This document shows, piece by piece, positions 1-41,872 of a DNA stretch of 64,000 nucleotides. Each line of letters opens with the position of its first letter. The stretch's first letter is position 1. The notes below the pieces were generated by a model, which saw only the letters and a program-made list of their open reading frames with translations, was not told where the DNA came from and made no database searches. A program made the translations under genes and the position numbers. Source of the DNA: Amoebophrya sp. A120 (lineage: Eukaryota > Protista > Dinoflagellata); the NCBI GenBank assembly GCA_905178155.1, contig CAJINV010000004.1, forward strand, positions 1,580,784 through 1,644,783. Direction: 5' to 3'.

Positions 1-2593
1 GAGACTGGCACAGCAGGAGTCCGCTCCTGGTCGCCAGGATCCTGTGGCCGGAACTACCCTGGGAGCGGGTGGTGCATCAAGATTTTCCGCAGGTGGTACT
101 AACAAGTTGCACCAACGATTTCGCTCGCTGTACTGCACCTCGCTTGCGGCCGGTTCCGAATCGGTAGCTGTGGGAGACAGCTGGGGCCGGGTGTCGGTTA
201 TCGACATCGCCCGAGGGTTATCAAATGCAAGAAATATGTCTGGGTCTGGAACATGGCAACTGGTCATGCCAGATCTGGATCATGCGAAAAATCTGTGTTG
301 CAGGATTACCAAAAGCTGGCCACTTTTGACCAAGTTGACATGGGGTTTCTCATGCAGAATAGGCATGACAGAGCCAGAGGTCTCATAGGATCTGTCATGC
401 GAGGTGGTAGGTTCTGCATTCTAGACCTCATGCGTCATGTACCAACTGCATGACAAGTTTGCGTCTTTCCAGACCCAGACATATTTGCAATGCATAAGCG
501 TGTCGCCTCGCGGTGTTCGACGCGCACGTGCAACCCGTCTCCGGGATCGCGTTTTGCCCCGAGGAAAGTGGGACGACGACCACAAGCGCCACCACCGATA
601 TCAAGTGCAAACATGTCTGGGTCCCATGCTAAGTGCAAACATGTCTGGACACTTGTCATGCTAAGTAATACATGAATGACACAATGACTAGAGTACGCAG
701 CCAAGCATGACAGATTTTTGAGCGGTCTTGTGGTGCGTAACACTCATGAGCAACTGCGCTTTTTCATCATGACACAGAAACATCACTGCTATTCCGCAAC
801 ACACATATACAGAGTTTGGGAGTACTATGCGAGTCCAGCATTACAAATCTCGCAAAAATCTTGTTCCAGACACAGTCGTATTTGCACTTGGTAGCCGAAC
901 TACAGATGGCGCAATTTTTTGGCCCGCTGGAGAGGCTAGCGACCGTGGGGTTTGACGGGAAGGTCAGAATATGGAGGTAAGACAACTTCGCATTTTTTCC
1001 TTTGCCATCAGGAACATTCAGATAGTATAGTACTCACATCTGCGAAGAAAAACGCCTCGGTCAACATACCCACATAGTACTACCGCATTTCTCGTGCTGA
1101 TTGAAAAAAAACCTTTTCTTCTTCCAGGCCAACCGGCGTGGTAGCAGCACCGGGCGGCTTTGCGGGTGCTCCGTCCGTTTCCGGTCTGCAACAAGGTATC
1201 CAATATAGACATCGGTCTGGGTAGAAGTGTTCTGAAAAAAGACTGCAAGACTTGTTGATGTAATGATGACCTGGCGCCATCGCCAATGCCATGCGACTGC
1301 GTGTGGTCTTTTTCTTTTTCGCAGGACAACTTTGATCTTCAGAACGTCCCAAGAATCATGTCATGTCAGTTTGCAATGCATACAAGGAATAAAGTTTGAG
1401 CCGCAACACCAGCTGGCGTATGTGCAGGAACTTGTGGATGACAACGAGAACGATCCCATGAGCACAGCTGCAAAAACCTCCCCCTCCCAAGTTGTAGGCA
1501 GCAACTCCCAGCAAAGTCGGCACCATCGCACGCTGCTCGCTGTGGCGTGGCACCGGTTTGGGGCGGATGACTGTGTTATCAAATGTAAAAATGTCTGGGT
1601 CTGGCATGGTTAGAACTTGTGATGCAAACTCTGGAGGACACAAAAATTTGTGTTGCATGAGCGCCAAAAGCTGTCCATTTCTTGGCACACAAGTAGGAAG
1701 TTTCTCATGCGGGACAGGCATCATGAGGCGTGCTCAAAACCTGTGATGCTTTTGCCTGCATCATACGCCATTTGCGTGATCCGAAATATGCATGACAAAT
1801 CTCGCAATCTTCCAGACCCAGACATTTTTACATTTCATATGTGTGGCCGTCGGAGGGTACGGCGGAAAACTCCGATTTCTGGCCTTCAACGCAGAGAAGG
1901 GGTGGCATTTTGTCCAAGACACGGCTCGTCCTGACGAGGGCGCTTTATTGGATCAGGAACTACTACACGGAAAAACAACGAAGATGGAGCAGGAGCAAAA
2001 GGGTTTTGCACCAGAGGACCAGACGCTATCCTGAGTAAGGACGTAGACATGAGAGGTCTTGGTTGTCACGCATGACAACTTTCTAAGGGCTGTCTGATGT
2101 AAATTTCGCAGCAGTGTTGAAATGCTCCTCAGGAGTGACGTCGAGAAAAATTCCGAAGTACATGACAAAGCTAGGGTGCGTAAGTTTTTACTCAGGATCG
2201 CAGGCGCGGGCTCATCTTCCTATCTGGAGTCTGGAGTTCGGGGTTTTCGGCGACCTGCGCGTCAGTTATGCGGCTGGACAACTATCTCATTCTCGCTTTC
2301 AAGTTCAGGAATATATCTTCTGCATGACATCCAACCTATGACGTCCGGAATAAAAAACTTGTGGCGTCGCCACTTCTGTTTGAGGTTTTTGCCGGAACTT
2401 GTCATGCAAACTAAAACGTCAGCTAAGTCAAGACTCAATAGTTGGGGTTGTCCACTTTCATATCAGTTTCGGTGATCGCGGTCAGTTTGCCATCTTTGAA
2501 CGGAGCTTGGACGGTGGATGGGAACAGGTCCGGTCCTCGTCTGGTGGGGCTGCTGGTTTCGGGGGAGGCCTGCAACTCGGGGAGAGTGTCTAA
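1..2593 (+). CDS. WD40-repeat protein, 5' part outside the window; six introner introns plus one GT-AG intron
   Basis: Joined exons give WD40-type repeats: SVAVGDSWGRVSVIDI, VFDAHVQPVSGIAFCP, LATVGFDGKVRIW, CVAVGGYGGKLRF, PIWSLEF; stop at 2591-2593. Confidence 0.8.
219..496. mobile_element. Introner, family A (TIR core tgtctgggtctggaa)
   Basis: TIRs; direct repeat agggt/agcgt; removal restores WD40 frame. Confidence 0.9.
599..893. mobile_element. Introner, family A, diverged
   Basis: TIRs; DR accga/gccga. Confidence 0.85.
1197..1382. mobile_element. Introner, family A, decayed
   Basis: DR caagg/caagg; right subterminal TIR lost; GT-AG register available. Confidence 0.75.
1577..1839. mobile_element. 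Introner, family A
   Basis: TIRs; DR tgtgt. Confidence 0.93.
2027..2202. mobile_element. Introner, family B (tatcctgagtaaaaacgt), diverged
   Basis: tatcctgagtaa...ttactcaggat; DR gacgc/ggcgc; right end approximate. Confidence 0.75.
2267..2462. mobile_element. Introner, minor family (tatg...tggacaac)
   Basis: TIR tggacaac/gttgtcca; DR tcagt; frame restored. Confidence 0.8.
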
Positions 2594-3639: not shown

Positions 3640-6582
3640 ATGATGCTGAGAGGACGCGGAGGTGCAGAGAAAGACGAAGAGCGCGACGTTGCCGGGGGGG
3701 ACGAGAAACGGATTTGGAAGACATCAACACGCAGTCGGAGGCAACAAGAGCAAGAAACGGGAGTGATAAATGAGGACGAGGTCAAATTCAAGGATGACAC
3801 AGCTGCAGATCCAGCTCGTACCACTCTCGGTGCTGCGTCAAAAACCACGCCAGAAGACGGGCCGCCAGTCCTGTTCCTTTCATGTAAAGACGATCCGGAT
3901 GTTCATCTTGAGAATGAAAAACAGGAGCAGCAGCGAGTCCAGCCTGCGGCTGTGCCTAGAAATGATCCCGCGGTCGTGATGTCCTCCTCCTCCACTTGCC
4001 CTGCGCAATTGTCGTGGGCTACTAGTACCACTACTACTATCCCCGTTTTTGCAACACCTCCAACACTCGTCGAGGACGCAACAGCATCTCTTCCGTTGAT
4101 CATCCAAAAGGTGCAAAAGACAAGCGACGCAGATAGAAGTAGAGATGATATAATGCAGGAGCACAGCGAAGTACTACTAGAGAAAGACAACCATTTCTAC
4201 CGAAGTAGTGGTAGGACAAAAATAAACCCCAATCACAAGCTGCTGATCGAAGACAACCGCGCCTCGAAGAAGCCACCGACATCTTCGCCTTTTTCAAGTG
4301 GTCAAAACGTTTCAGCCGTCGATATTGAAGATGCGGAAGTTGTAGAAAAAAACAAGAATCTGAACTTCACCCGACTGCTGCAAAAACCCTTCTCGCGGGA
4401 CTACGTGAAGGCGGTTGTGACCGCCTACGGGAAGGCGTGGGTCGAGCAAGACAGCGACCAGCTGGTGTATTGTGAGGAAATATCCCCCCTCCCCATATCG
4501 AAAAGGTATGCTTCTGAAAATTTGTGATGCAGATTTGTGACCACAAATCCTGTCTGTCTTGCAAGAGGGCAATCTCAGAGACTCCGCCACGATATGCAGA
4601 CGATTTGTAATGCTGCAAGGCCTACAGGGCAGACGTCTGCCATGCCAGGCCCCTACACCAAGAGGCCCGCCCTTAGGCTTACGAGCTGCGTGCAGTCCTT
4701 TACTGCAAGACAAATGTGATTTGTGTACTCAAATACAGCAACACAAATTTCATTTTCGATATGGGGAGGGGGGATTTTTCCTCTCAATATGGTGCAGCTT
4801 TTCACGGCAAACGGGATGTACAAGGAGAAACCCGGTCGGTGCATGCACGGAGCGGAGGAGATTTATGGCGTTCTCAACTGTTACACTCTCAAGTGTTACA
4901 CGAATTTGTGATGCAAAAGCAGCAATAGGGATAGCGGCAAGCTTGCGAGTCGTGCGTCACAAATTTGGCGCAGAGTTAGATGCTGTTTAGCCCTTCGATT
5001 ATTTGTCATGCGAAGCAGCTCGATCGACTGGCGGCTCATGGTCATTCTGCATGACAAATTCATGTAACAGTTGGGTATGTAACGGTTGAGACCGCCATAA
5101 GATTCGGCACTACTGGAAGAAGCAGATCTGCCAGAACGAGAGCGACATCGAGTTCCAGCATATTCTCAGGAAAAACGTCCGCACTCCATAGTCAAGTTGG
5201 GAACTCTGCAAGACGAAGCAACAAGCTTTGGCTGTTGCGCATGACAAATTTGGGCTCGTGCTGTAGTCGCGTTTAGCTAGTGCAGCAGCATTACGGATCC
5301 AGTTTATCCTGCTGAGATGAGTATATAGAAATCTCAAAACACCACTAGAGAAAGCTTCTCATAGGGCTCCGCATGAGAAGCCTTATCAGCATGCAGAGTT
5401 GCATTACAGCTATGGGATGGGGACGTTTTTGCGTAGGAAACAGCACGAGGAAGAGGACATGGTTTTCGACTTCGAGAAAAAACAGGCCACCGTGAAGTGG
5501 CTTGCGTCCTTCGTGAAAACAAGTTCATCTTCGAGCACTTCTAGTGTTGTCCCGCCCTGGAAGCGTCACGGAGCAGATGGTGCCCGCGGGGGCGGCGGCG
5601 GTTCGGGTGAGGCGGATGTCCTCTGCTTTGTGCAGGTCGCGACGCTCCGATTCCGATGGGTTCAGGTCGCGGAGAGCGTTGGGATGTGGAAAATCTACTG
5701 CTTGGAGGAGTATCTTATGCATTGCAAAAGTATCGTACTAGAAGTTTAAATCGCATCAATACAAATAATTGGCTCAGCATTACAAGTCAAAAAATTTGTA
5801 TATGCGGATTTGCCTTAACAAGTAGCTTTGTGATGCAGAAATGCGATTACTACGAGTAAGATACTTTTGCACAGGATATATCTGCACCCCTTTTGGAACG
5901 TGAACGGGATCAAGGTTCTTTATTGTAGTCTACTTAAGTACATTAAACTCAATTATTTTAAATGCTGTTTGAGTTGATCGACGCCTGACATTATTTTGAA
6001 TGCTGTCCGGTCTTCCTCAGCGCTACCTCGAGGAAGCTGCACGACAGGAAGATTCGCGATGCTATAAAATGAAAATAATTCATCACCTACTTTGTCGCGA
6101 TTCAACTTCAAAACGAAACTACTGTAAAACTGTTTGAATGTTTCAAATAGGAATTTCTCACCCGGGAAGACCGGTCGGGCGCGAAGCTGAACATCTCCAT
6201 CAGACTATCCTCAGTAAAAACGTCCCCAACCCGCCAGAGTTGTGACGCCAATTTGCATCTTGTATCCTTGGGATGTTTGTTCTCTAGCCAAACTTCAAGA
6301 TGATGTCGTGCGTGAGTCCCAATAAGAGCCCACGACGTGTCTTGCAGTATTCTCATCTTGGCTAATATCGGTTGGGGACGTTTTTTTTACTCAGGATACC
6401 GTCGGGGCGACCCAGCACCGCCGTCGCGCGCCGGCGATCGGGACTTTATTCGGCAGAACGGCAATGGAGGCAGTGGGGGCGGAGGACCTGCCTCCGCGGG
6501 GGGGAATTATAACCGCCCTACTTCAATACGGAACACGAATCTGGAGCAGCTATTCGGAAAGCGCATGCAAGGATACCAATGA
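3640..6582 (+). CDS. SnoaL/NTF2-like domain protein with a low-complexity N-terminus
   Basis: Joined exons: VKAVVTAYGKAWVEQDSDQLVQLFTANGMYKEKP...GAEEIRHYWKKQI...ATVKWLASF...VATLRF...KIYCLEEY; start codon uncertain. Confidence 0.7.
4468..4789. mobile_element. Introner, family C (tccccctccccatatcg)
   Basis: TIRs; DR tggtg. Confidence 0.93.
4864..5099. mobile_element. Introner, minor family (tatggcg.tctcaac.gttaca)
   Basis: TIRs; DR agatt; frame restored (EEI|RHYW). Confidence 0.88.
5161..5440. mobile_element. Introner, family B
   Basis: TIRs; DR cagca. Confidence 0.88.
5716..5878. mobile_element. Introner, family G (tgcaaaagtatc)
   Basis: TIR tgcaaaagtatc/gatacttttgca; DR tatct. Confidence 0.85.
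6206..6398. mobile_element. Introner, family B, shortened
   Basis: TIRs; degenerate DR cagac/ccgtc. Confidence 0.8.
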
Positions 6583-14000: not shown

Positions 14001-15992
14001 TTTCAAGCACAAATCGCGGATGAAACAAATCAAATCAGAAATCCTACTCCTTCCCCCGTCTAACAATTTGCCGGGGCTGCCGCGCCAATCCCAGCAGTAT
14101 GCGAGAGAAAAAGTTAGCATGGCTGCATATTTGCAAAAATACGAAAAATATTCGTTCCACAAAGAACCTCTCCAGCAGCAGTACTATGATGCGAAACAGT
14201 TGTATGCTATGAGCTCGTGGTCGCGCATGGCAGCTTTTCTTGAGTTTCCTGTGTCTTTTCGTTTGCATGATAAAATGCAATGAAAATAAGAATGCGACAT
14301 CAATATCATGCTAGTTACTTGTTCTCTCTGATACCGAGCGAGCAATGCAAGGAATGCGGACGCTGCCCCCCGGAGGTGCGGCAGATCCCCAAAATGCAGG
14401 GCCCCTTCATGGTCGGCTCCAAGACGGTAGAAGTAGATACGCATTGCAAATATCGATCTGGGTCTGGTTCAAGGACGCAAGAAGTTTGTCATGCTTGTTG
14501 CGCGTGACTCTTGAATCTGTACAATGCGACGTGACCAGGAAAATAAATGCCTAAGAGGCAGCCTCTTGCCTGTCATGCAAGAGTGCAGTTTTCCATGCGG
14601 AAATCGAAGAACCACAAAGGAGCCCAGAAGCTTGTGAAGATGCGTGGTTCCGGATAATTGCAGTGTCCTCCCACGACCATTCACAAACTAGGATCACAAG
14701 TCTCCAGACCCAGGTCGATATTTGCAATGCATAGTGGAATCCCGCGAACGGTGTCGCGAGCAGCCGGTCGAGATCCGAAATCTGCGGGTCACTGCTAACG
14801 CTGCCGACGGGACCAAGATGCGGTCCATGCGGGGCATGAGCCATCAGACGCCCGGTCGCTTGCCCGGCAACGTGCGCTTTGTCGTCAAGAGGGAACCCCA
14901 CGACACGTATTTTCTTTTTTCAGAGGCGCAAATATGATTTCTTTTGACAAGCTGATCCAGGATTGGATTTGGAAGGAGGTTGGAACCAGCCATGCATGAC
15001 AGACTTACAAGAATTGGATGCACAGCTGCAAGTGTCTGAATCGATGACAAATTCGCAGATATTTTTCAATGGACGATGATCTCTACACGGTGCTGACCAT
15101 TTCCCTCTCACAAGCCTTGTACGGGTTCCAAGGAAAGTGGCGCGTATTGAAAGACCACGAGTACGTCTTCATCGACAAGGCGGGCAAAACCACGCAACCA
15201 AACGAAATCATGCGAATCAAGGGGAAAGGTTTCAAGGAATTTTTTATTTTCATTCTCTTGTGTATACCATTTCCATTACCATGATATGTGCTCTTGTAGA
15301 CGTCCCATTATATTAACCCATGATCAGAGCAGCGCTTTGACACTAAGGCCCATAATTCTTCCATTGACAATTAGCGTGAGCGTGACTGCATGAAGATACG
15401 AAGATGTTTGACACCAAATCGAGGTATGTACAATGCGTACGGGGTATTGAAAGGAAAAACTCCCCCTCCCCATATCGAAACGGGATTTCTGATGCTGGAT
15501 TTGTGTACACGAATCAGCTTTGTATTGCGGGAAGGCATTCCGGCTAGATCCCCAGCCTAGGTAGGGGTGTATCGGTCTAGTTGCTCAGCATCGCAAACGG
15601 CTCCCCTTTAGGCCCAACAACATGACAAATCGCGTCCATAATGGGGGCGAAGCTTCTGGCCTTGTCTTCTTGCAAGACAGATGTGATTTGTGACCTCAAA
15701 TCAGCAGCGCAAACTTCCGGAAACATGCCTTTTCGATGTGGGGAGGGGGGATTTTTCCTTTCGATACGGGGGGCGTGGCGACTTGGTGGTGCGGTTCAAT
15801 GTGGAATTTCCCGAGTCCGGAGCCAATGTGAAGCTCGAGAAACCGAATGAGATCGAAGTGCTGAATACGCCGCAGCTAAAGGCCGAGATGGACCTGATCA
15901 AGCATGACGAGAAACTCTACAAAGCCTGGGTGGAGACGGTGCCGGGGAAGAAGAAACGCAGCAAGAAGGGGGGCAGAAAGGAGGAGCTCTAG
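8066..15992 (+). CDS. dnaJ: DnaJ/Hsp40 co-chaperone, ERdj3/DNAJB11-like, C-terminal KEEL
   Basis: J domain DAFAVLDV...EIKKSYRKKSVTHHPDKGGD...IRQAYEILS; VSLEELFAG; CRGC/CKECGRCP; DDLYTVLTISLSQALYGF; IMRIKGKG; RGDLVVRFNVEFP; start 8066 or 8249. Confidence 0.85.
8252..8531. mobile_element. Introner, family B
   Basis: TIRs; DR ccatg; reverse orientation relative to 30491-30770. Confidence 0.93.
8565..8821. mobile_element. Introner, family A
   Basis: TIRs; DR tttgc. Confidence 0.93.
8902..9163. mobile_element. Introner, family A
   Basis: TIRs; DR tgggg. Confidence 0.93.
9174..11264. mobile_element. TIR-less composite insertion of about 2 kb in a DnaJ intron, with three copies of the exon/donor junction
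   Basis: 58-bp copies at 9174-9231 and 10363-10420; 39-bp copy at 11226-11264. Confidence 0.75.
9436..9716. repeat. Three tandem 99-bp units with internal hairpins
   Basis: gtagctcatgtgctcagagtgcacc starts at 9453, 9552 and 9651. Confidence 0.92.
11528..11892. mobile_element. Introner, minor family (tgc.caagaa), diverged
   Basis: TAT...ATA ends, short TIR; DR ggcgg; frame restored. Confidence 0.8.
12934..13186. mobile_element. Introner, family A, inside the J domain
   Basis: TIRs; DR tcgca/ccgca. Confidence 0.9.
14098..14333. mobile_element. Introner, minor family (gagagaaaaag..tagcatg)
   Basis: TIRs; degenerate DR; joins CRGCRANP to SEQCKECG. Confidence 0.78.
14438..14733. mobile_element. 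Introner, family A variant
   Basis: TIRs; DR gtaga/gtgga. Confidence 0.9.
15445..15766. mobile_element. Introner, family C
   Basis: TIRs; DR cgggg. Confidence 0.92.
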
Positions 15993-19123: not shown

Positions 19124-22100
19124 ATGGATCCCGCCTTCTTGATGCAGATGCAGATGAGCATGCTGCTGCAACAGCAGCAACTGATGGCAAACGCCATGGC
19201 GGCACAGCAGCAGCAGCAGCAGCAGGGTCAGCAACTACAACCGGGAACAAGTACGATGTTACCGCAGATCAACATGCAGCTGCCACAACTGCCAGGCGCC
19301 GGAGCAGTAGTTCCTCCAGGAACTTCTACAATAGGGAACAACATGATGAACCAGCAGCAACCGGTCCAGCAACTGTTGCCAACGATACCCAACATGTCGC
19401 AGGTTGTGGTTCCGCCCGGAGGTGCTGCTATCGCCACACCTGGCACGACAGGGAACAAAGGCGGGGGCGCGCCAACTGCACCCGCTTTATCCGCGGCTCC
19501 AGGTGGAGCTGCTCCCGGGGTACCACTTACGGGTGCGGCTGCGGGGCTAGCCGGAAATGATGAAACAGACGCCGGCGCGTCCTCAGAAGTAGTGCCTCAT
19601 AATCTACCTCAAGGCACGGCAAAGCAACAGCCGCCACTTCAAGCTACGTCCAATGCGGCTGATCTCCTACACACGGCCACCCCGGTGGGTACATCTATCC
19701 TTGAGATCTATCATTTTACATACTTACTATGCAGAGAAACAGATGTGCTAATAGGGTAATCCTAAAAATCTTCACGCCCAGGTGCGCAGAACTAGAACGA
19801 CTTGCTTTTCATCATGATTCACAGCAGCTGGTGGCTCGTGCCAGCACGGGCTCCTGGTGAACCAAGTTTGTATATTACGGTAGTTTATTTCATCAGAAAT
19901 GAAACATTGTTTATAGAAAATTGTTCACTTTTATCTCCCTCAGGACCTGCAGCTGCACCAACGCCCGGGCCGTTGCCTCCAGTGGCCACCCACCCACCAG
20001 GAGAGCAAGCTAGTACGGCTCCACCTACGACCGTTGCAATTCCCAGTTCGGGTAGTGCACAGCTGCTAGCCGCGTCACCCTCTGCAGCTGCTGGCGGTAG
20101 TACATCATCCAGTTCTACTGCGGGGGTCGTGCCAGGATTGTTTACAACCCAAACTCCCGCTGCGAACAACAGCGGAATAATTCCTGCCACGGCCTCTACG
20201 CTTCAATCTACTGGGCGGACCGCTGGCGGCGCCGCATCGTCGTCCTCGTCAAGTGGTGGACCACAAGCGCAGCAACAGCTACAGATGCAGCTACAACCTC
20301 CCGCATATCATCCCGCTCTGGTCGTGCCCCCGCAACAGCAGCAGCTCCTGCAGGGGAATCCGATTGTTCACCCGAACCCCCTCGCGGCAGCACCACAGGT
20401 CGCCCCCCTGCCGCCCAAGCCGGATCTACGCGAGATCAATCAAAAGGCTTTCCTGCTGCCGGGCGGCGACTGGCAGTGCCCGGTGAAAGCGTGCGGAACC
20501 ATCAATTCCAAACGGTTGAATAATTGCGAGAAGTGCGGAAAGTCAAAACCGGTGCGGAACGATGCCGAGATGCCCATGACTATGAGCGCACCGCCAGGAC
20601 TGTATAGAGGACGATAGATGTTTTTTTTTTGTGTCTAGCAAATCGTTATTTGGTTTTGGCAATCCACGATAGTTGAGTACATCTGCAGTTATCATAGTCA
20701 TGGCAGGTTGCGCAATCATCTTGCTGTAGTACACTTGTGAAGACCAAAGAATAATAATCAACCACATATTCATATCGTACTACAAAATACACAGGTTCAA
20801 GCCTGGAGATTGGACCTGCTCTTCCTGGTATCAAACGGAAATAAATAAGAGCTGCTCCGGGGCGTACTATCGTCCTCAATTCTTTCTATGCAATCGATCC
20901 TGATAGAAGGGGCTCGTCCATGCATTCATCATATTCTCTGATCAATGATTTGCATTTGTGTGGGATTTTTGTTCACTTCGTACAAGAGAAGCACAATAGA
21001 AAAATGACCGGTAAACAAGTAAGGAAATAGCCGCTTCCAGGAAGTAGCTCTTGATGTTTCCAAGATGATACCTGTGCCAATGTGAACTGGGACTGGCGTA
21101 CACGGTGCAACCTTTGCCAGAGTCTTATTGTGAAGAAAAATCCCCCCTCCCCATATCAAAACGAAGTTTCTGATGCTGGATTTCCGTACACAAATCACGG
21201 CTGTCTTGCAGTATATGCTTGGAGGCATATGCCGTGCCTGAGTACAGAGCTGCTGACGTGGACGCTTAGTATCACAAATGCCTATGCTGTAGCCCAGGCA
21301 GCATCACAAACCGCCCGCATAGTGCGGCGGAGACTGTAGAGTAGCCTTCTTGCAAGACAAATGTGATTTGTGACCTCAAATCAGCAACGCAAATTTTCGG
21401 AGACATACCTTTTCAATATGGGGAGGGGGGATTTTTCTTTTCAATAAGTCTGAAACCCGAGCTCCAGGAGAAGCGGGAGGGCGGGCGTGCGGGCGGCTAT
21501 TTCGACCGGCAAGACCCTGAGGACCTATGCATTGCAAATATGTCTGCGTCTGGGTCTGGATTTGTAATGCAAGACATCAAGGACAATATGGATTTGCGAT
21601 GCATAAATACGATTGGCCAGTTTCTGTGTCATGCTGTGAAACTCAGTTATTTGTAATGCTTCCGACGAATGAATCCGCAAAATATAAGCTGAGGATATTA
21701 ACTTGTCATGCTGTTATTCCGTACAACTACAAGGAGCCCGTCTGCAATGCAAGTATCAGCAACACAAGTTTCCAGACATCCAGGGATATTTGCATTTCAT
21801 AGGACCGAAAGCAACACGATTCCGACGAGGAGGAATTTGACGACTATGGGCGTATATCCACCGCAAATATGTCTTGATTTGGAAGATTGAAACTTGTGAT
21901 GCGCATTTTGGATCACACATGAATCTGTCATGCATGGAAGGCAATACGAATACTTAAAAAAATGGCCCGGCGCTTCCTGTCATCAAAATCCGGAAGAACG
22001 TCTCATGCGGGATCAGCATTAAGAAAGCTTCGCAAAATTGTGACCAGTAATGTCGTGCAAAAACAGCATCACAAAGTCCGCACTTTTTCAGACCACCCAG

Positions 22101-23452: not shown

Positions 23453-24616
23453 AGACGTTTCTTGCAGATTCAATGAAAAATATGGATTATGCAAATTAGT
23501 TTGAGCATGAGCGGCGAACGAACAAGCATCACGACCATTCAAAGACTACAGTACGAACTACATGATCACATAGAAGTCACTGCTCGTCGTCTTCAGGAGA
23601 GCAACATGAACTTACTGAGTACGACCGCGATGTGTTTTTCTTTTTCCCGTCCATCTCTTGAAGAGTCAAATTGCTCTCTGGCGCCACTTTTTAAGTACTT
23701 CGCGCGGTGTTGCTGGTAGTATCCCCTCTATCCTGACAATGCGGTTACAAGCGACAAGCTCCAGCTCGTATGATGTAGTATACTCCTCGCAGGGATTTTT
23801 CTCCATCTCCATTATTAACGGCGTCGGTTCCGTTCATCCGTGTCTGTGATCGTGCGTTTGAAGCGCCACACCAAAGCCTGTGGAAGGCTATATTAACTAG
23901 AAAAATTTGCTCTTCGTTCGGTCAACTTTGACACTTTCGTTGCGGTTTCCAATATCTGTCCTGTGCTATATTTTGAGTCGGTATTTCTGTATCACTTTTT
24001 CTTGCAGTTCTCGTCGCGTTTTTATCGGTTATGTTTTGCTTTTGTCGTTGTATTATCGTTTTAAACCACCTGTCGTCCAGTCATTCATTCTTTTCGTTCA
24101 ACCACTACTCACTCGTGCACGAAGAAATGGAAGCGCTCGTCCACGTAGTCGTTCGTCTTTTGTCCTTTGGAGCATTAGCATGACCCCTTTGGGTTTGAAC
24201 ATCTTCACACGGTGCATCAAAAATCGTATTAGATAACAATAGAGGATTATACGACCAGTTCGCATTTTTTGTTTTCGACAGGCACTATATTCTAGCAACA
24301 CCCCGTCAACAATATTATATATCTCCTCACCTTTATATACTGCATGATCTGCGCATGGTCGTGCGCATTCTCCCCTGATCGTGATCGGCACCACACGCTC
24401 CTCGCACTGTTGCCATCACGCAGCAAGCATGATATTTTTACGGAGACGGACCGTCGAACAAGCGTTGCGCACAGTAGACGATTCTCATAGGTAGTTGTCA
24501 TGATTTTACTGCAATATGAAAATACTGCAAAGAAAAAATGACTAATTCTACGAGATAACATTAAGTGCAAGCGCTCCTTCTCAGAAATAGTTGCATTTGT
24601 CCGAAGAAAAGCTAAG

Positions 24617-27600
24617 ATGGGAAGCTCAACCGCCCTTCCCGACGAGTGCGGAGGTCGTTCGCCGTTCCAGGGCGATGCTCCACAACGGCCTTGCGTCGAC
24701 CTTCACAACAGCGCCGGGAAAAGAAACCCGTCGTCATCTTCCTTCCGGAGCCGGTATCACGAACACCGGGCCGCGACGGAGGTGAAGAACTCAAGACGAG
24801 GAGGAGGAATAAAACTTTGTTGGGCTGGTGCTCTAGTCGTACTTCGGAATTTCTACTGCGCAACAACGACTTCTACACTTCTCGCTCTAGTACATGTACA
24901 ACTCCCACGACCGGTTTTTGGTGTGACTGCAACATCTCCTACCGCGGCAAATGCCTCCTCCACGCGGTACTTTTTATCCGAATCACTGTGCAAATACGAC
25001 CAGCAGCTGGAGAACCGGGAGCAATGCGAGCAGGCGGCGACTAAGTTGCTGAACTGGAACCCGTCGGCGGTAAACACGCCGAGCCTCTACATCGCGAGCA
25101 AAGAGTATCAAATGTAAAAATGTCTGGGTCTGGAAGAGTCATGCTGTTTTTGCATGACACGGAAGGCCTGGCATGAAAGCTCTAGCATCACAGGTTTCGA
25201 AAAGCTTCCGCAATGCCGAATCCGCATGACAAATCCCCTATTTTGCTGAGAGAAAATGGGCAGCTTCTGCTACGTATGCATGAGAGACTTTTCTGTGTTC
25301 TGAAATATGCATTACAAGTTGCATTCTTCCAGACCCAGACATTTTTACATTTGATAAAGAGTGGCAACCGCTGAAAACCATGAACCGGGCCGGCTGCTTA
25401 TCCTGAGTAAAAACGTACCCACACCATAGTTGTCATGCAACTCTGCATGACTAAAATGTTTCTCATGCGGAGCCCCATGAGAAGCATTTTCTAATGCGGT
25501 TTTGAAATTTGTCATGCTCCAATCAGCACGAGATACTAGATCTGTAATGCTGCTAAACTAGCTCAAACAGCACTACACTACGCGGACAAACTTGTCATGC
25601 CAAACAACCAAAGCTGGCTAATTTGTCTAGCAGATTCCCCATCCTGACTCTGGTGTGGGTACGTTTTTACTCAGGATACTGCTGGTATGACCAGGGGACC
25701 AAGTTGCTGGTCTGGAAAGAGGAGGGAGACAAGCGGGATACCAGCGCGAACCACGGGGACTACCTCCTTTTGTGCAAGTCTGAGGACGGAGGTGGCCACG
25801 GGGGGCACCACGTCCCCGCTCTGTATTTCCTGTATCCTGAGTAAAAACGTACCCACACCAGAGTCAGGATGGGGATTTTGCAACACAAACCTAGGAGTTT
25901 TGTGAGTCACGCGTGACAACTTGCACTCTGCAGCGTAGTGCAGGTTAGCAAGTGCAGTCGCATCACAGATTCATCTGCTCATCCTGTTTACAGCATCACA
26001 AATTCCAAAACACGACTGGAAATGGCTCTCATAGGGATGCGCATTACAAGTCTTCCTGTCTTTGCAAATCTGCATTACAACTCTGGCGTGGGTACGTTTT
26101 TACTCAGGATATCCTGCTCGCCTTCGTTTTGGTCGCCATTCTGGGCTTATCAAATGTAAAAATGTCTGGGTCTGGAAGAATGCAACTTGTGATGCTGCAT
26201 TTGGATTCCAAAAAATAAAAAGTCTGTATTGCATGAGTACCAAAGGGAATGCATGCTTTTGCTACGCTGATAAGGCATTTGTCATGCGGAATAGGCATCA
26301 AGAAGCTCTCAAAAAATCTGTGATGCTAGGGTATGCATCACAGACATCATGGCTCATGCAAAACGTGCATGACGAATCTCGCAATCTTCCAGAGCCAGAC
26401 ATTTTTACAGTTGATAGGGCTCGCTGCTCGTCACCGCGCTCGACAAGTTCGTCTTCCACCACTTCTTGCCGCAGTCCCTGCTGCTGGTGCTGGTGGGGAT
26501 GCTGACCAACGTCCTGGGCCACCTCGCGCCGCCGCACGGGCACTTTGCGGAGATGATCCACGCCGTCAGCCACATCGACCCGCACGTCTTGTTTTGGGTG
26601 CTGCTGTATCAACCGCAAAAATGTCTGGGTCTGGAAGATTGCCAGGTTTGTCATGCATATTTTCCATCACCCACGATGTCTGTGATGCATGCCCTAGCAT
26701 CACAGATTCTGCGAGGGCTTTCTGATGCTCATACCGCATGAGAAATGCCCTCTCCGCGTAGCAAAAACCGGGCTTATTTTGCTCTTCACGCAATACAGTC
26801 TTTATGTAGAGTCCAGACGTAGCATTACATACAAGTTGTATCCTTCCAGATCCAGCGATTTTTGCGATGCATATGCTGCCTTTCCTGCTGTACGAGGACG
26901 GGTCCTCCGCAGACTGGCGCGTGCTGAAACCGGTGTTCTCGAACGCCGTCACGCTCGCGGTGCCCGGGGTGCTCATCTCCTTTCTCCTCCTGGGCGGGTG
27001 CATCAAGCTGTTGTTCAGCGACCCCCCGGGAGACGACGGGTGGACGTTGGAGTCCTGTTTGTTGCTGGCCGTGATTCTGTCCGCCACGGACCCGGTCGCC
27101 GTCGTGGGCGCGCTCAAGGTATCAAATGCAACTTGTCATGCTGAATCTGAAGCATGGAATAATCTGTGTTGCATGATTACCAAAAGTCGTTCAGTTTTGA
27201 CCAAGTCGGGAGGGAGTTTCTCATGCAGGATAAGCATAAGAGAGATCGCACAGAATCTGTCATGCTAGGTCCTGCATTCCAGACCTCATGGGTCATGGCA
27301 AAGCTGCATGACAAATCGCGCACTCTTCCAGACCCAGACATTTTTGCATTTGATACAAGGTGCTGGGCGCGCCCGCGCGGCTCACGCTGCTGATCGCCGG
27401 GGAGGCGTTGATGAACGACGCCACGTATCAAGTGCAAAAATCGATCTGGGTCTGGAAGGTTGCAGCTTGTGATGCTGTCTTTGGATTCCAAAAGAATCTG
27501 TATTGCATGACTAGCAAAAGGCGTCCAGTTATTTGTGCTACACGGGGAGAGCATTTCTCATGCGGTAGAAGTATCACAAAGCCCTCCAAAAATCTGTGAT

Positions 27601-30600
27601 GCTACGTCAAATATCACAGACATCATGGCTCATGGAAAATATGCATGACAAATCTAGAAATCTTCCAGACCCAGACACTTTATTTGCAGTTGATACCACG
27701 GCGGTGGTGTTTTTCCTCCTGTTTTTCGACATCGCCCGGGGCGTCAAGGACTTCACGATCGGGTACAGCCTGCTCACCTTCTCCCGGCTCGCCCTGGGCG
27801 GCCCGGTGATTGCGGTCGTGGGGATGCTGGTGGCCTACTTTGTGCTGTCGCGGGTGAAACACATCGACGCCCAGGTGTTCTTGTTCCTGATCGCGATCAT
27901 CGTGTTTGGCCTCTTCTTCGTGTCCGAGATGCACGAGATCCACGTGTCCGGGGTGCTCGCGGTGGTGGCCTTCGCGTTTTGGTACGCGGCGGTGGGCAAG
28001 GACCTGATTGCGGCGAACGGCGGGGAGCACCTGACGCACGCGCACCACCAGGTGGTGTCCTTCCTGGCCGGGGTGGCCAACGACTTCATTTTCTTCATCG
28101 CCGGCGTCGTGATGGCCCGGTACATTTTTTTCTCGGACATGCGGGTGCAGGACTGGCTGGAGCTTGGCCTTCTATACGTGCTCTGCCACTGCTGCCGCGG
28201 CCTCGCCATCCTGGTCCTGCTGCCCGTGCTCAACATCGGCGGCTACAGCGTCTCGCTGAAGGAGGCCCTGGTGTGCGTGGTCGGGGGGCTGCGCGGCGCG
28301 GTGGGGCTGGCCATGGCCCTGCTGGTGGAGCTGGACCAGTCGGAAGATCCGCTCCCCCTCGAGATCCGCCTGCGCATCGGGTTCCACGTGAGCGGCATCG
28401 CGCTCCTCACACTGTCGATCAACGGGGTGCTGTTCGGAAAAATCTACGACAAGCTGAAGATCTACCCGCCCGCGGAGCAACCGAACCAGCTGCTGATGCA
28501 GAAGTCGGCCCTGCTGGCCGAGGCGGTGGCGTACGAGCACGTGACGGAAATGCGGCACCACTGGCTCTTCAGCAACCTGGACGCGGACGCCGTGCTAAGG
28601 CTCACCCCGCGCGTCTCCGATATGCTCGAACAGGAAGCCAAGTCCACGGTTCTCGAGCAGCACGAGGTGGCGCGCAGCATCGTGACCACCGCGTTTGTAC
28701 CCACGACCACGGGCAGCGCCGCAACCTCGTCCGCGTCGATCGCGGAGCTGAAGCGGCAGCAGACCTTCAGCAAGGCCCAGCTCGCCGCGAAGAGGGCCTT
28801 CGAGAAGCGGCGGGCGCAGGCGGGCAAGGTGTCCACCATGACCGCGGCCCGCAAAACCTTGGACGCCAAGTCCACCGCCCGCGAGGGGGCCAAGTCGGTC
28901 AGCTTGCTCCGCCCCAAAACCATCGTGGAGGTGGTGCTGCAGCAAGCGCATGACGAGTTTCACGCGCCGGAGCACTACGAGTCGGTGTTCGCAACCATCG
29001 TCAAGGAGTGGGAGGTATGGGTTGCAAATATGTCTGGGTCTGGAAGAATACAAACTTGTGATGCGCATTTCAGAATACAGAAAAATTTCTCATGCATACG
29101 TAGCAAAAGCTGCCCACTTTCTGTCACCAAATTGGGGGATTTGTCATGCGGATTCGGCATTGTGGAAGCTTCTCGAAACCTGTGACGCTAGAGCTTCCAT
29201 TCCAGACCTTTTGTGTCATGCAAAAACAGCATGACTCTTCCAGACCCAGACATTTTTGCAGTTGATAGGAGGAGCACAGCTACGACTACGAGAAGTGGCG
29301 GGGGTTGACCTGCTTCCTGGTGCCCGGCCTGGATGAGTCCTTCATTGCGCGGCAGGCGCACGCCTCCAACTGGCTCACGGCGGAGTACGCCAGCAAGTCG
29401 CTGCGCACGCTGCTGACCGCTTTTCTGAACGCGGTCCACGCCGGGCTGGACCGCCTGAGGAAGCAGCGGTACCGCATGGGCACGTGGCCGGGGGCGCAGA
29501 TCGGGGAGGCCCTGATCTTCGCGAAGGAGGCCATGGAGGGCATCGTGCGGGCGGACCCCTGCCTGAAGCCGACGGCGAAAGTGATCGTAAACTATTTCCC
29601 CGACATGCCCCCAGAGATCTGGAAGCAGTCCGCGCAAACCCAAGCGGAGTGGGCCCTGGAGGTGGCGTTCTGCCGGCTGTACGCAGACATCTACGGTGCC
29701 GGGTTCGACCCTTCGGAGGTGGTGGACCACGAGAGTAGTACGAGCAGCAGTCGTTATAATGCCTCGCCACCGATGACCAGTCTGAGCAAGTTGAAAAAGC
29801 AGGAGGCCGGGGCACGGTCGATGCTGTTTTTCTGCCTCGTACTGGAGAACGCGCGGGCGCTGCTGCAGCCCGTGGTCTCCAACGACTACGCAGCGGAAGC
29901 GAGCAAACGCGCCTCCGAGTCGAGGAACAGCGGGATAAATGGTAGATACAACGACGGCGCGACGCGCGGATCGATAGACTCCCGGCGGACGGCACAAAGT
30001 ACAAGTTCTGGTGACAACTCTGGTTCCGCGGGGGCGCTGGTGTTGGGCGGCAGAGTGTTTTCCGAGTTGTTTTCCCGCAAAAGAAGTGGAACCAGCACGG
30101 GAGGATCTGGTGGTGCTTCCGCAGTTGCACCACCTCCCCCCGGAAAGAACAAAATTTCACCCGCCGAGGGTGTTGATGTGCTGGACGAGGAGGAGCTTGT
30201 TGGTGGAGAAGGCACGTCGGCTCCGAAAGTAGACCGCACTTCGCAGGACCGCGGGAACCTCACCGACAACAGCGAAGAGAACAACATAAATAGTAGTACG
30301 ATTCAGACCGAGGGGAGGCACCGGTTGCCCGCGTCGGGGTTGCTGCGGCAGGCGACTGCGAAGCTCCAGGAGGAGAAGGAAACCACGAAAATTGTCAGTG
30401 AGACGCTGGACCTCGCCGTGGAGAAGCTGGACGTGAGTCTGAAGCGGGTGCTGTTCGCCGCGCGCAGCTGCGTGATCAAGAACTGGATCGTATCCTTTGT
30501 AAAAACGTCCCCACACCATAGTTGTCATGCAAATCTGCATGCTTAAAATGTTTGTCATGCGGAGCCCCATGAGAAGCATTTTCTAATGGTGTTTTGAAAT

Positions 30601-32454
30601 TTGTCATGCTCCAACCAGCATGAGAGACTAGATCTGTAATGCTGCTGAACTAGCTCAAACAGCACTACACTACGCGTCCAAATTTGTCATGCGAAACAGC
30701 CAAAACTTGTGGATTTGTCTAGCCGATTCCCCATCTTGACTATGGGGTGGGTACGTTTTTACATAGGATAGATCGGGAAGTACCCCAAGGTGAGCCGCGT
30801 GTGGCTGCACTCGCTGGCCGCGCAGGGCATCGCGGAAGACATGTGGCACCAGCTGGAAATGTGCAAGGACTCCGGCCTGTTGACCGCCCAAGAACTCGGC
30901 TTGCTCGATATTACAGTGAAAAGTGCCCCCCACCCCAAAGTTGCAAAAATTTGTGATGCGAAGTTTCCAAATGAAAACTTTTTGTCATGCATGAAAGGAG
31001 TATGAATCTTTCTGATGCAGATTCTAGTCGTGTTTCGCATCGCTTACATGACAAGCACCGCTCTTGCTGGGATCTTTTGCAATACAAATTTTTGCTATTC
31101 ACGATCGGAAATCTGTGATGCTGATACATGCAAGAAAGCGAATGCTTCATTTGGAAAGGTTTGCAATACAAATGCTTTCAAGTTCGGGGGGGGGGGCATT
31201 TTTCATTGTAATACTCGACGCCAACGTGTTTCACCTGGTGCTGGACCATCTGGAAGCCTACAGCAACCTGGACCACTTGGACCATATTCTGCACCTCGAC
31301 CGTATTACAATGAAAAATGCCCCCACCCCCGAACTTGGGAGCATTTGTGTTGCAAACCTTTCCAAATGAAACATTCGCCCTCTTGCATCTATCAGCATCA
31401 CAGGTTTTCAGTCGTGAATAGCAAAAATTTGTATTGCAAAAGACCCCAGTAAGAGCGGCACTTGCCATGCAAGCTATGCGATACACGCCTACATTCTGCA
31501 TCAGAAAGATTCATACTCCTTTCATGCATGACAAAAAGTTTTCATTTGGAAACTTCGCATCACAAATTTTTGCAATTTAGGGGTGGGGGGCACTTTTCAC
31601 TGTGATAGACCGGGAAAGCAGTTCTAGAGCTGCTTTCGAGCAGCGCGGGCGGGAACAAGCGGGAGCGGAAGCGGTCGGGGGCACCAGCACGACATCATCG
31701 GCGCTGAAACAAGGAACAACAATACCAAATGACGCAGGTGCAGCATCATCCCCCGTGAGTAGCGCCCCGTCCACCCGACTCTCCGTTCCCACGACCCAGC
31801 ACCGACGCACCGTCAGCAAAGATGGCGGAAAGACGGAGGTTTCCATATCCTGAGTAAAAACGTACCCACACCAGAGTCAGGATGGGGATTTTGCAACACA
31901 AACCTAGGAGTTTTGTGAGTCACGCATGACAAGTTGCACTATGCAGCGTAGTGCAGGTTAGCAAGTGCAGCCGCATCACAGATTCATCTGCTCATCCTGT
32001 TCACAGCATCACAAATTCCAAATAAACACGATGGGATTGGCTCTCATGATGGGGATGCGCATTACAAGTCTGCCTGTCTTCGCAAATCTGCATTACAACT
32101 CTGGTGTGGGTACGTTTTTACTCAGGATATTCCACCCTGGCTGGGTCCATTCGGCCCGTGCAGTTTGACTTCTCCAAGGACAAGGAGCAGCGAGCCACAG
32201 TGCTGAAGATGCGGGAGCGAGTCTCCAAGAGCGTGAACAACCGAAAGTCTTGGCGGGGCGCGATCCAGCGAACCCGCAGCCTAATACGGTTGGGCGCGGC
32301 CAGTACGGTGCAGGCGACAACCTCGGGCGAGGAGGAACTACAGAATGAGAACGGCGAAGAAGTTCAAACAGGGCCAACCACGCAGGAGCCGGAGGCGGAA
32401 GCGAACCCGCTGCAAGCAGCGCTCGCGGAGGAGGAAGAAGTAGACGAGGAGTAA
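24617..32454 (+). CDS. Na+/H+ exchanger, CPA1 family (SOS1/NhaP-like), 12 introner introns
   Basis: Joined exons give IDPHVLFWVLLPFLLYE, ILSATDPVAVVGAL, LIAGEALMNDATAVV, VSGVLAVV, GGLRGAVGLAMAL and multiple TM helices. Confidence 0.92.
25106..25356. mobile_element. Introner, family A
   Basis: TIRs; DR aagag. Confidence 0.94.
25399..25678. mobile_element. Introner, family B
   Basis: TIRs; DR ctgct. Confidence 0.94.
25833..26111. mobile_element. Introner, family B
   Basis: TIRs; DR tcctg; near-identical to 31846-32129. Confidence 0.94.
26148..26416. mobile_element. Introner, family A
   Basis: TIRs; DR gggct. Confidence 0.94.
26607..26873. mobile_element. Introner, family A
   Basis: TIRs; DR tgctg. 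Confidence 0.93.
27120..27355. mobile_element. Introner, family A, left TIR largely deleted
   Basis: DR caagg; left end reads tatcaaatgcaacttgtc, lacking tgtctgggtctgga. Confidence 0.9.
27426..27695. mobile_element. Introner, family A
   Basis: TIRs; DR ccacg; splits NDAT|AVV. Confidence 0.93.
29016..29267. mobile_element. Introner, family A
   Basis: TIRs; DR ggagg. Confidence 0.94.
30491..30770. mobile_element. Introner, family B
   Basis: TIRs; DR gatcg. Confidence 0.94.
30909..31213. mobile_element. Introner, family D (tattaca.tgaaaa.tgccccc)
   Basis: TIRs; DR ctcga. Confidence 0.94.
31303..31607. mobile_element. Introner, family D, inverted copy of 30909-31213
   Basis: TIRs; DR gaccg. 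Confidence 0.94.
31846..32129. mobile_element. Introner, family B
   Basis: TIRs; DR ttcca. Confidence 0.94.
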
Positions 32455-33760
32455 GTAGGTTCCTAGTAGTGCTGCGTTCATATAATTTGCCTACCCAAAA
32501 AATTTTATTTGCAAAGCAAATTTGTTCAATCTGTTATCCTTATCGGCGACTCAACGTCGACGGCTGTCATTTGGACTCGTTGCAAACGGAGGAACAGGAA
32601 CTTCGTCCTCGAAGTAGACTACGACCCGATCGACGATTTTTGGATAGCACAAGCACACCTTGAACTGCATGGCAAACAATGTCTGTAATTGATCGATTCT
32701 ACATATTTCTGTTGTGTGATAGTGATGTGTCGTGTGTGCTTTGAATGTCAAGTACCTCTTAAGATGCCTATTAAGCATGATCGCTTGACTGAAAATACAA
32801 ATAGCTCCACCCAGGCAGGCGAAATAGATGCGAATCGACAATGCTGGAGATGGTCCCCGGTTTCTATTCACGAATTTATGCAATGAAGCATTCCCCATGT
32901 TGCTGGAAGTGATATTGATCCCCCAAATCATTCCTAGTTAGACCACAGCAGCTAAGTACTGCAGTTTCATCGTGCAACGGTGGAAGATCATCGCCACGAG
33001 GAGCAACTTTTACAGGCTCCATGTTTCATTGCCTTCAAAGGTCGAGAATCGCTTCTGATGACCCTTGATGTTCTTCTGGAACTTAAAAAAAAAAACGGCT
33101 GCGTTCCTTTTCCCGTACACGTTGTCGTGAAATAAGTAAGACGGGCCGTTTCAGTTCCATCCCAGAATTCCCATATTTGACTTTTGGATGTGTAGTGTTG
33201 CCCGACAAGAAATCATTATCATACTTACATGATGATCTTGACGAAGACAAAGACATCGGAGCTGCTGCCAATCGCTCTTTATGAATTGTGGCTGTACTAT
33301 TGTTGCACCCACGACTATTGATGTCGATCTATCTTCTTCGTTCCCCATACCTTTAGCTCTTTCTTGGCGTGCCACTTTTTTGCCGCAAGAGAGGGGACAA
33401 CTTCTATGGATACTAACCAACGGGTGTAGCTGCATATTGTGAAATAGATCTACCCGCAGCTCCACCTGGGTACTATATTCATGCAGAAGTAGAGCGAGGA
33501 CGCAGAGGATAGCAAAAATGCAGAATAACAATCCGCCCCGCAACTATACTTTTTTTCTACTAAACTACTCGTTTACAACTTCGTGCAGCTGCTGCTTGTT
33601 TTGGATATACAAGACCTCCGGGACTTTATTTTTCAATCTATGATTGAAGTTGAAGACGTCGTCTAGATTTCCGTTTCGGTTTTTGTGGCTTGATTGTGAA
33701 ACGCAAACATTACTGCAGCCGTGTAGTTATACGTATATATAATTTAAGAAAAAGAAATTC

Positions 33761-40736: not shown

Positions 40737-41872
40737 AAAATGCACCGAACCCTAAGCGCACTCGTTCCCGCACACAGCCATCAGGTATGCACTGCAAGAG
40801 CATCGCACTCGTCGGAGTCTCTTTATGCGCGAATTGCGCGCAAGAGTAGCGAGTGCGATACTTTTGCCAGAAAGCAAGGACATGAGGAGAAACAGAAAGC
40901 AAGGACATCATCACGAAAACGAGCAACCTCAGTGTTACTCCCGTAACGCACCCCCTCCCAAGGCCGGCCGAAAACATCCCACGGCCGGGCCCGTGCTCGT
41001 AGTTAGTCAAATGCACGACGTTGTCACCCATCACAATGAGCAAGAGTCTGTACGTTCACTACCCCGGCCGCCTCCGTCGTGAAGTTTGGTTGCGGTCGTC
41101 GGAGAAGGGCCAGAACCTACAGAAGGAGAAGGAGTTATTACAGCGAAAAAGCCCGCAGCCATCTCAAGACGCGCTGTCTGAGAACAAAAACCACGACTGT
41201 CCTGCATGACAATTTTGGGTGGTCTGTCGGCTTTTTTAACGGAATAGGTGCGGGCGTTTGACTACTCTGCCCGCCGCGTTCTTTGCCTTGACGCGGAAAA
41301 CAACAAGCAGACAGACACCAACCCGACAGACAACAACCAGACAGCAGCAAAACAGCACCCAAAAAACAACAGCCTCCACCGACCTGGCGCCCGGGCTGCA
41401 GCGTCTTCTACCAAAGCGGCAGCGGCAACAGCGCTCAGCAACTTCTGCCGGAACGCCGGAATAAACCCCGCAAATGCCACAAAAGGTAACAGGAACATTG
41501 GCCCCCGGGCTTTTGTAGTGCGGATTTGACTTCGCAGAAAGATTTTTAATGCAAGAACTGCATTGATTTTTATACGAGTGCGATACTTTTGCAAAGGATA
41601 GCCATTGAGCTGGAGCGGCTCCGGATCCCCACGCAGCCACGCCGTATCCTGTGTGAGTTTTCCCGCACTGCCTCTTCGTGCGGCGCTCACGTCGCGAGCC
41701 ACGTCGGGAAACTGTGCACACAGGATAAAGCTAGTCAGCAGTTTAGGGCCCGGATATGATAGATGGGCGGCGTGAAGGCGTGCAAGGCGCGCAAGCAAAA
41801 GAACAGAACGAGCGTTCCCGCCGATGCATTTGCGGGCCAGAGTCTCGAGCAGCTACAGGCTGCAACAAGAAG

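What the first reader, a model, noticed from the sequence alone, without database searches (positions are those of the whole stretch)
27115..27360. TIRs decay where the duplication supplies GT-AG, suggesting the stem is the non-canonical splicing signal
Seen: a DR ending in AGG gives AG|GTAT...AG|G, a canonical intron. Both caagg-flanked genic elements have lost a TIR arm: 27120 lacks the left tgtctgggtctgga core and 1197 lacks the right one. Old, internally diverged elements without such a register (599, 6206, 14098, 20829) keep both arms. The ggagg element at 29016 is intact and looks young. Inference: end pairing is under selection only when the spliceosome has no GT-AG. The sample is very small.
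Basis: inference. Interest (0 to 1): 0.76.

Follow-up and report, generated by a model that had tools for sequence, protein, structure and literature searches.

The report
Hairpin introns relax once GT-AG appears
These are already published transposon-derived introns, matching those described for the plankton parasite Amoebophrya, and they are cut out of the RNA exactly even without normal splice signals; the few old copies that do have normal GT-AG ends have lost their end-to-end hairpin while old copies without them kept it, so a short terminal hairpin likely marks the cut, but the copy flagged here still has its hairpin tip and does not show this.

Summary
The window holds 48 catalogued TAT...ATA elements with 5-bp direct repeats, matching the published Amoebophrya A120 introners (PMC7789003). 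RNA contigs lack all 12 in the Na+/H+ exchanger gene to the base; 10 of them are not GT-AG. The cut falls after repeat base 4, which this scan also noted on other DNA of this genome.

1197 is GT-AG and has no end pairing. 27120 lost only an inner 26 nt in one deletion, is young, and keeps a perfect 12-bp tip; a non-GT-AG copy (L046:4542) has a like lesion.

I tested the idea on 380 kb of further DNA. Copies with both ends intact show no class difference (weak stems 0 of 12 GT-AG, 27 of 332 others). Among old copies, 3 of 3 GT-AG have no stem against 1 to 4 of 58 others. Only one of the three is both independent and repeat-supplied, and detection favours copies with arms. Evidence for pairing rather than a sequence motif is weak. 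Verdict: known elements; hypothesis partly supported and testable genome-wide.

The parts
27115..27119 (+). left 5-bp direct repeat (CAAGG); its last base is the first intron base
27120..27355 (.). introner of the main family (F0), 236 nt, with a 26-nt deletion after base 12 of the left arm
27120..27131 (+). outer left arm, perfect 12-bp inverted repeat of 27344-27355
27327..27355 (+). complete right arm (inner core plus outer 12 bp)
27356..27360 (+). right direct repeat (CAAGG); supplies the AG
27119..27359 (+). 241-nt GT-AG intron, skipped in RNA contigs
   Evidence: joint 27114>27356, GT..AG at cut +4
24453..32991 (+). host transcript, Na+/H+ exchanger (PF00999), 1524-codon open frame; 12 elements removed give 5201 nt, the length of RNA contig X3 record 3
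29016..29267 (.). young intact F0 introner, repeat GGAGG, GT-AG intron, skipped in RNA
1197..1382 (.). old F0-derived introner, repeat CAAGG, GT-AG in frame, end pairing lost
599..893 (.). older F0 introner, non-GT-AG, end pairing kept but left core interrupted
6206..6398 (.). old F3 introner, non-GT-AG, arms kept; RNA piece starting at 6403 bounds the cut register
14098..14333 (.). old introner in a DnaJ-like gene (name from recalled motifs), GT...GA intron; an AG one base further is not used
20829..21070 (.). old introner, GT...TG intron; a zinc-finger-like Cys needs base 5 of the right repeat

Best explanation
These are MITE-like introners that are removed from RNA together with one copy of their 5-bp repeat, and a short terminal helix with TAT/ATA ends likely positions the cut at a fixed distance, so copies that also have GT-AG borders are likely freed from keeping it. 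Shown: exact removal of element + 5 nt for 12 of 12 copies in one gene, 10 without GT-AG. Inferred from four junctions: the cut lies one base before TAT and four bases after ATA. Inferred from few cases: old GT-AG copies lose end pairing, old non-GT-AG copies keep it. Inferred: about 12-14 bp suffice, since 27120 and the non-GT-AG copy L046:4542 both lost the inner arm. Untested: that the catalyst is a modified spliceosome.
For: RNA joints and the 5201-nt match. Register: X9 pieces end at 216 and start at 6403, Cys at 20829, 511-nt exon sum across 14098 and 14438, where an AG one base away is skipped. Old copies without stem: 3 of 3 GT-AG against 1-4 of 58; with the 5 set-aside rows, 4 of 6 against 2-5 of 60. 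Non-GT-AG copies with 2 or more repeat mismatches: 0 of 26 without stem. One canonical end is not enough: old GT-only median z -5.6 (22 copies), AG-only -4.7 (5). Derived arm changes favour G-U over A-C on the RNA strand, 158:105, against 406:385 in interiors (p 0.015). A blind search for in-gene gaps (161 gaps; 70 skipped as long or weakly flanked, 25 catalogued elements, 31 GTA..YAG, 35 read by eye) showed no clear stemless non-canonical intron.
Against: 27120 keeps its stem tip. Both-ended copies show no class difference (0 of 12 against 27 of 332 in the loci; regression term 0.07 +/- 2.1). Only one independent repeat-supplied old GT-AG case. Old non-GT-AG copies were mostly found by their arms, 26 borders were set by hand without RNA, and thresholds were chosen after seeing the data. 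Non-GT-AG copies with little or no end pairing exist: L166:51 (z +0.3), L053:3980, L128:399, L026:5761, and L077:1885 (coding uncertain). Arm positions 4, 5 and 7 do not covary in F0 (95 vs 106.7, 101 vs 103.5, 66 vs 67.2 expected). G-U against A-C is 145:147 in F0 alone and 138:116 per element (p 0.19). 11 of 23 compensatory changes come from one two-copy subfamily. W:40786 and L031:5552, if GT-AG, are old and keep part of the stem.
Confidence: 0.55

Rival explanations
1. No release from selection: arms drift alike in both classes, and the contrast comes from how copies are found. Old non-GT-AG copies are recognised by their arms, old GT-AG copies by their splice sites, and some are merely elements that landed inside an existing intron.
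For: No difference among 347 younger copies. Inner stem pairing in old non-GT-AG copies (0.76) is not far above the drift expectation (0.66-0.67). One of three old GT-AG cases is enclosed rather than repeat-supplied. Low similarity to sampled relatives may mean a rare subfamily rather than age.
Against: The arm-free scans found few stemless non-GT-AG candidates. No clear old GT-AG copy had an intact stem. Copies aged by repeat mismatches alone all keep a stem (0 of 26 lost).
Confidence: 0.22
2. Selection on the ends is real but acts on sequence, not pairing: a protein or small RNA reads the TAT and ATA ends and the A-rich motif near them; complementarity is a leftover of transposon symmetry.
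For: Terminal triplets are kept at 0.97 at all ages while the inner stem decays. Positions 4, 5, 7 mix freely between arms. No G-U excess in F0. In Euglena a short motif at fixed spacing defines such introns (PMC12501133, abstract).
Against: At least 14 families with different arm sequences keep complementary ends. 23 of 31 double changes are complementary against 7.1 expected, though inheritance can explain this. Weak RNA-strand G-U bias in arms. TAT or ATA is changed in 14 and 18 of 390 copies.
Confidence: 0.2
3. The stemless GT-AG cases and lesioned copies sit in dying genes or are assembly errors.
For: No raw reads were laid on the 27120 deletion; the loci have no RNA support.
Against: The 27120 gene is transcribed, spliced and has a 1524-codon frame. 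DNA run X1 has a contig over 685-1600 with no other letters, covering 1197. Frames are open across L039:1732 and L071:1815.
Confidence: 0.03

Closest known systems
Amoebophrya A120 introner elements (Farhat et al. 2021, PMC7789003; read: abstract, passages, sections 11, 12, 16; one supplement file searched as text, its figures not seen)
   Same: Inverted repeat starting TAT, seven variable bases, then three or more A; 3-5-nt direct repeats; about 240 nt; many families; the same layout in 15% of canonical introns; hairpin proposed to join exon ends; U1 not found.
   Different: In the parts read, the paper leaves the border position unknown and does not compare stem decay between GT-AG and non-GT-AG copies. 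Here the repeat is 5 nt, the cut register is bounded, and the contrast is tested on a small sample.
Euglenid nonconventional and intermediate introns (PMC3935182: passages and section 13; PMC4770533: passages; PMC12501133: abstract and discussion)
   Same: Non-GT-AG introns with paired ends, proposed MITE origin, fixed spacing of a paired motif from the borders; the idea that an intron with two signal types tolerates loss of one and can turn conventional.
   Different: The Euglena signal is a CAG/CTG-type pair at +4 to +6 and -8 to -6, genetically tested, with purine/pyrimidine border rules. Here the ends are TAT/ATA one and four bases inside the borders, border bases are free, and nothing is tested at the bench.
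Fritillaria borealis TIR introners (bioRxiv 10.1101/2025.08.15.670264: one passage; PMC11282704: part 2 of 5)
   Same: Non-canonical introns from non-autonomous DNA transposons, removed precisely.
   Different: There the splice sites are the element's own recurring dinucleotides (mostly AG-AC, AG-AT). Here the border dinucleotides come from the host target duplication and vary freely.
Micromonas introners (PMC11282704: part 2 of 5)
   Same: TIR plus target duplication; the duplication can supply the AG.
   Different: They need canonical sites, one from the element and one from the duplication. Here only 15 of 392 strand-assigned copies are GT-AG at the register.

Membership tests
Amoebophrya A120 introner elements | 8-20-nt inverted repeat: TAT, seven variable bases, three or more A | tested here: met
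Amoebophrya A120 introner elements | 3-5-nt direct repeat over the exon-intron borders | tested here: met
   5 of 5 identical in 314 of 448 complete copies, 4 of 5 in 85
Amoebophrya A120 introner elements | Repeated, in families, about 240 nt, non-autonomous | tested here: met
   14 families of 2-126 intact seeds, consensus 112-321 nt; too short for a transposase, none searched for
Amoebophrya A120 introner elements | Removed from RNA without GT-AG | tested here: met
   9 joints displayed and all 12 by length; X3 and X4 are RNA by guess, lack cover in several bins between genes, and DNA run X1 keeps elements 1197, 6206, 14098
Amoebophrya A120 introner elements | Host is Amoebophrya A120 | tested here: inconclusive
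   Inferred from the match to the published motif; no genome is held; earlier notes of this scan say the same
Euglenid nonconventional introns | CAG/CTG-type pair at +4..+6 and -8..-6 | tested here: not met
   Intron bases 2-4 are TAT; arm positions 4, 5 and 7 are variable and often unpaired
Euglenid nonconventional introns | Secondary structure joins the intron ends | tested here: met
   End duplex -27 to -60 kcal/mol in the 12 introns of the transcribed gene; prediction only
Euglenid nonconventional introns | Excised as circles, pairing shown to be required | not testable with these tools
   No raw reads of this strain's genes; no mutants
Canonical U2 intron (for 27119-27359) | GT-AG borders in a register that fits the RNA joint | tested here: met
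Canonical U2 intron (for 27119-27359) | Removed by the GT-AG route rather than the element route | not testable with these tools
   Both routes give the same mRNA and the 12-bp tip is intact

The most novel reading that the evidence does not exclude
Amoebophrya runs two splicing codes side by side. One reads GT-AG; the other ignores border bases and measures one and four bases from a short TAT/ATA-capped helix, even skipping an AG one base away. Any insertion is thereby an instant intron, and the minority with an AGG target hand over to the GT-AG route, shed the hairpin and become ordinary introns, a visible path from transposon to canonical intron.
Probability: 0.4. Interest if true: 0.75.

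Novelty: already known. Interest (0 to 1): 0.47.

Why it matters
How Amoebophrya removes tens of thousands of introns with no fixed border bases, and apparently without U1, is stated as open in PMC7789003. If GT-AG copies are natural controls that lose the hairpin while the others cannot, the signal can be mapped from existing genome and RNA data, with no genetics. The elements and the hairpin idea are in print, and the two-signal argument was made for euglenids (PMC3935182). I found no paper making this contrast for Amoebophrya in four full-text searches; the library lacks most subscription papers, and I did not read Roy et al. 2023 or Henriet et al. 2019.

Tried and rejected
No whole genome is held and the contigs behind the loci are not held, so the genome-wide test was not possible; the viral collection had no match. 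Raw-read runs X11 and X12 covered only element-like sequence, not the host gene: no evidence either way. In one search the DNA run X1 filled the 15 displayed joint rows, so joints at 599, 1197, 6206 and 14098 were not seen directly; X3 and X5 showed no long pieces there. My first comparison, on both-ended copies only, found nothing, but it left out copies with a missing end and misplaced the ends of L039:1732 and L071:1837; both analyses are reported. Most unpaired arms were nested insertions or locus edges, not losses. G at repeat base 5 as selection for a GT donor is not supported: 101 G at base 5 mirror 94 C at base 1, which fits a target preference. Mismatched repeats do not drift toward AG (5 gained, 9 lost) and only weakly toward GT (12 against 7). 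The 11 copies that could be GT-AG in another register keep their stems. The internal AG at 1324 as acceptor for 1197 closes the frame. Four terms gave no hit in the text of the Farhat supplement; its logo figures could not be seen and may bear on the register.

Full report
What is there. The window is eukaryotic DNA with 48 catalogued elements of mostly 110-335 nt (12.5 kb) that begin TAT, end ATA and are flanked by a 5-bp direct repeat of any sequence. This fits the description of Amoebophrya A120 introners in PMC7789003: inverted repeat TAT, seven variable bases, three A; direct repeats; the same layout in 15% of canonical introns. The organism is inferred from this match. No genome is held.

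They are introns. RNA contigs X3 (5201 nt) and X4 (5135 nt) span 24453-32991 and skip each displayed element plus 5 nt (9 joints shown). Removing all 12 elements gives exactly 5201 nt and a 1524-codon frame with a Na+/H+ exchanger domain. Only 27120 and 29016 are GT-AG. X3 and X4 are one sample, marked RNA by guess; they lack cover in several bins between genes. DNA run X1 keeps elements 1197, 6206 and 14098.

Register. With identical repeats the cut cannot be placed, but mismatched repeats bound it. X9 pieces end at 216 and start at 6403, so repeat bases 3 and 4 come from the left copy. At 20829 a Cys of a zinc-finger-like motif (recalled pattern) needs base 5 from the right copy. So the intron is one base + element + four bases, if the register is uniform. 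Across 13837-15765 the X9 contig needs 511 exonic bases, and this register plus my canonical borders gives 511: intron 14097-14337 is GT...GA and the AG one base further is not used. Two earlier notes of this scan report a fixed spacing on other DNA (unchecked notes).

The flagged copy. 27120 is 92-94% identical to full-length relatives over aligned bases and differs by one 26-nt gap after base 12, between short repeats. Its outer 12 bp pair perfectly, the predicted fold closes with 14 bp, and its end-duplex z of -5.6 is stronger than those of 599 and 14098. Among 165 young F0 copies two have an arm gap of 8 nt or more: 27120 and the non-GT-AG copy L046:4542. It cannot show release from the stem. 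1197 can: GT-AG in frame, no end pairing.

The wider test. Profiles found 501 copies, 53 cut by locus edges. Gene strand came from a codon model that had the right sign for 38 of 40 window copies, taking all as plus-strand; 36 copies without a clear strand were dropped. Among both-ended copies the classes do not differ: weak ends in 0 of 12 GT-AG and 27 of 332 others in the loci. I then read the 47 copies with a broken end, the weak profile hits and two arm-free scans and set 26 borders by hand from open frames. This added L039:1732, whose AGG-ending repeat is 5 of 5 identical, whose borders are GT-AG in frame and whose 3' arm is gone, and L071:1815, an element remnant inside an in-frame GT-AG intron. 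Of 413 introns, 5 were set aside (1 weak remnant, 3 ambiguous, 1 coding uncertain). In the other 408, no stem (z > -1.5) in 3 of 17 GT-AG and 2 of 391 others; among old copies (interior match under 0.6) 3 of 3 against 1 of 58, or 4 of 58 at z > -2; among younger copies 0 of 14 against 1 of 333. Leaving out the discovery case and the enclosed case gives 1 of 1 against 1 or 4 of 58 (p 0.034, 0.085). Thresholds were chosen after seeing the data, the loci have no RNA, and arms help detection, so the p values are too kind.

Pairing or sequence. In old non-GT-AG copies the terminal triplets stay paired (0.97; 0.72 expected at the drift rate of the repeats), but my end-finder rewards them; positions 8-28 fall from 0.90 to 0.76 (0.66-0.67 expected). 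In F0 positions 4, 5 and 7 do not covary, while 10 and 14 do, which descent can explain. G-U exceeds A-C on the RNA strand slightly overall (388:334, p 0.048), not in F0 (145:147); derived arm changes are 158:105 against 406:385 in interiors. Double changes are complementary in 23 of 31 against 7.1 expected, 11 of them from one subfamily. The evidence leans to a short helix capped by TAT/ATA, not the whole 30-bp arm, and does not exclude a sequence-only signal.

Against. L166:51 (young, outer 3' arm gone, non-GT-AG unless a GA-AG pair is used), L026:5761, L053:3980, L128:399 and L077:1885 have little end pairing without GT-AG; W:40786 and L031:5552, if GT-AG, keep part of it.

Known work. The elements, the hairpin proposal and the missing U1 are in PMC7789003. 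The two-signal argument is in PMC3935182, and paired motifs at fixed spacing are genetically shown in Euglena. PMC12130899 (passages) and PMC12787238 (passages) add nothing on stems. I found no published GT-AG against non-GT-AG decay test for Amoebophrya.

Verdict. Known elements; observation half right; inference plausible, with a strong-looking but very small contrast. Its value is a cheap genome-wide test of an open splicing question.

Noticed in passing
window 14097-14338; L145:294-539; L026:5761-5990: GT and AG are both present but one base out of register. The RNA length (14098) or the likelier frame (L026; L145 ambiguous) favours the non-canonical cut, which suggests measuring rather than AG scanning.
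   Followed up: partly
L009:6466-7720, L002:1142-3029, L033:627-1465, L071:3862-4492, L070:571-1051, L037:3307-3763: Elements split by nested insertions of about 0.2-1.6 kb keep both arms and mostly their repeats.
   Followed up: partly
L067:2011-2321: An unrelated element with a near-perfect inverted repeat of about 27 bp in a coding frame; its 5-bp repeat fits best if the ends are not TAT/ATA. It would test stem against motif if RNA were at hand.
   Followed up: no
all strand-assigned copies with identical repeats (291): Repeats ending AGG number 13 against 5.4 expected from exon composition (p 0.003, post hoc); AGG at the other two offsets 3 and 3.
   Followed up: partly
family consensus sequences: Families with unrelated arms share several copies of one internal 8-10-nt motif in both orientations, possibly the mobilising protein's site.
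   Followed up: no
window 30909-31213 and 31303-31607; 25833-26111 and 31846-32129: Closely similar copies in one gene: two F7 copies 90 bp apart in opposite orientation, and two F3 copies; local hopping or conversion.
   Followed up: no
window about 9165-11270: An exon end of about 45 nt occurs three times (near 9170, 10365, 11228) with tandem repeats between, inside the span of one X9 transcript contig (7855-16100).
   Followed up: no
L083:236-329: A 94-nt remnant without its left inner arm; read-through, element-type excision and an enclosing GT-AG intron are all in frame.
   Followed up: partly
L003:1571-1795: Left arm of one family joined to the right arm of another in an ABC-transporter-like gene (recalled motif); deletion between neighbours or misassembly.
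   Followed up: no
window 41514-41600 and 40786-40875: Two F1 remnants with one decayed end and a possible GT-AG pair around them; coding context unsure.
   Followed up: partly
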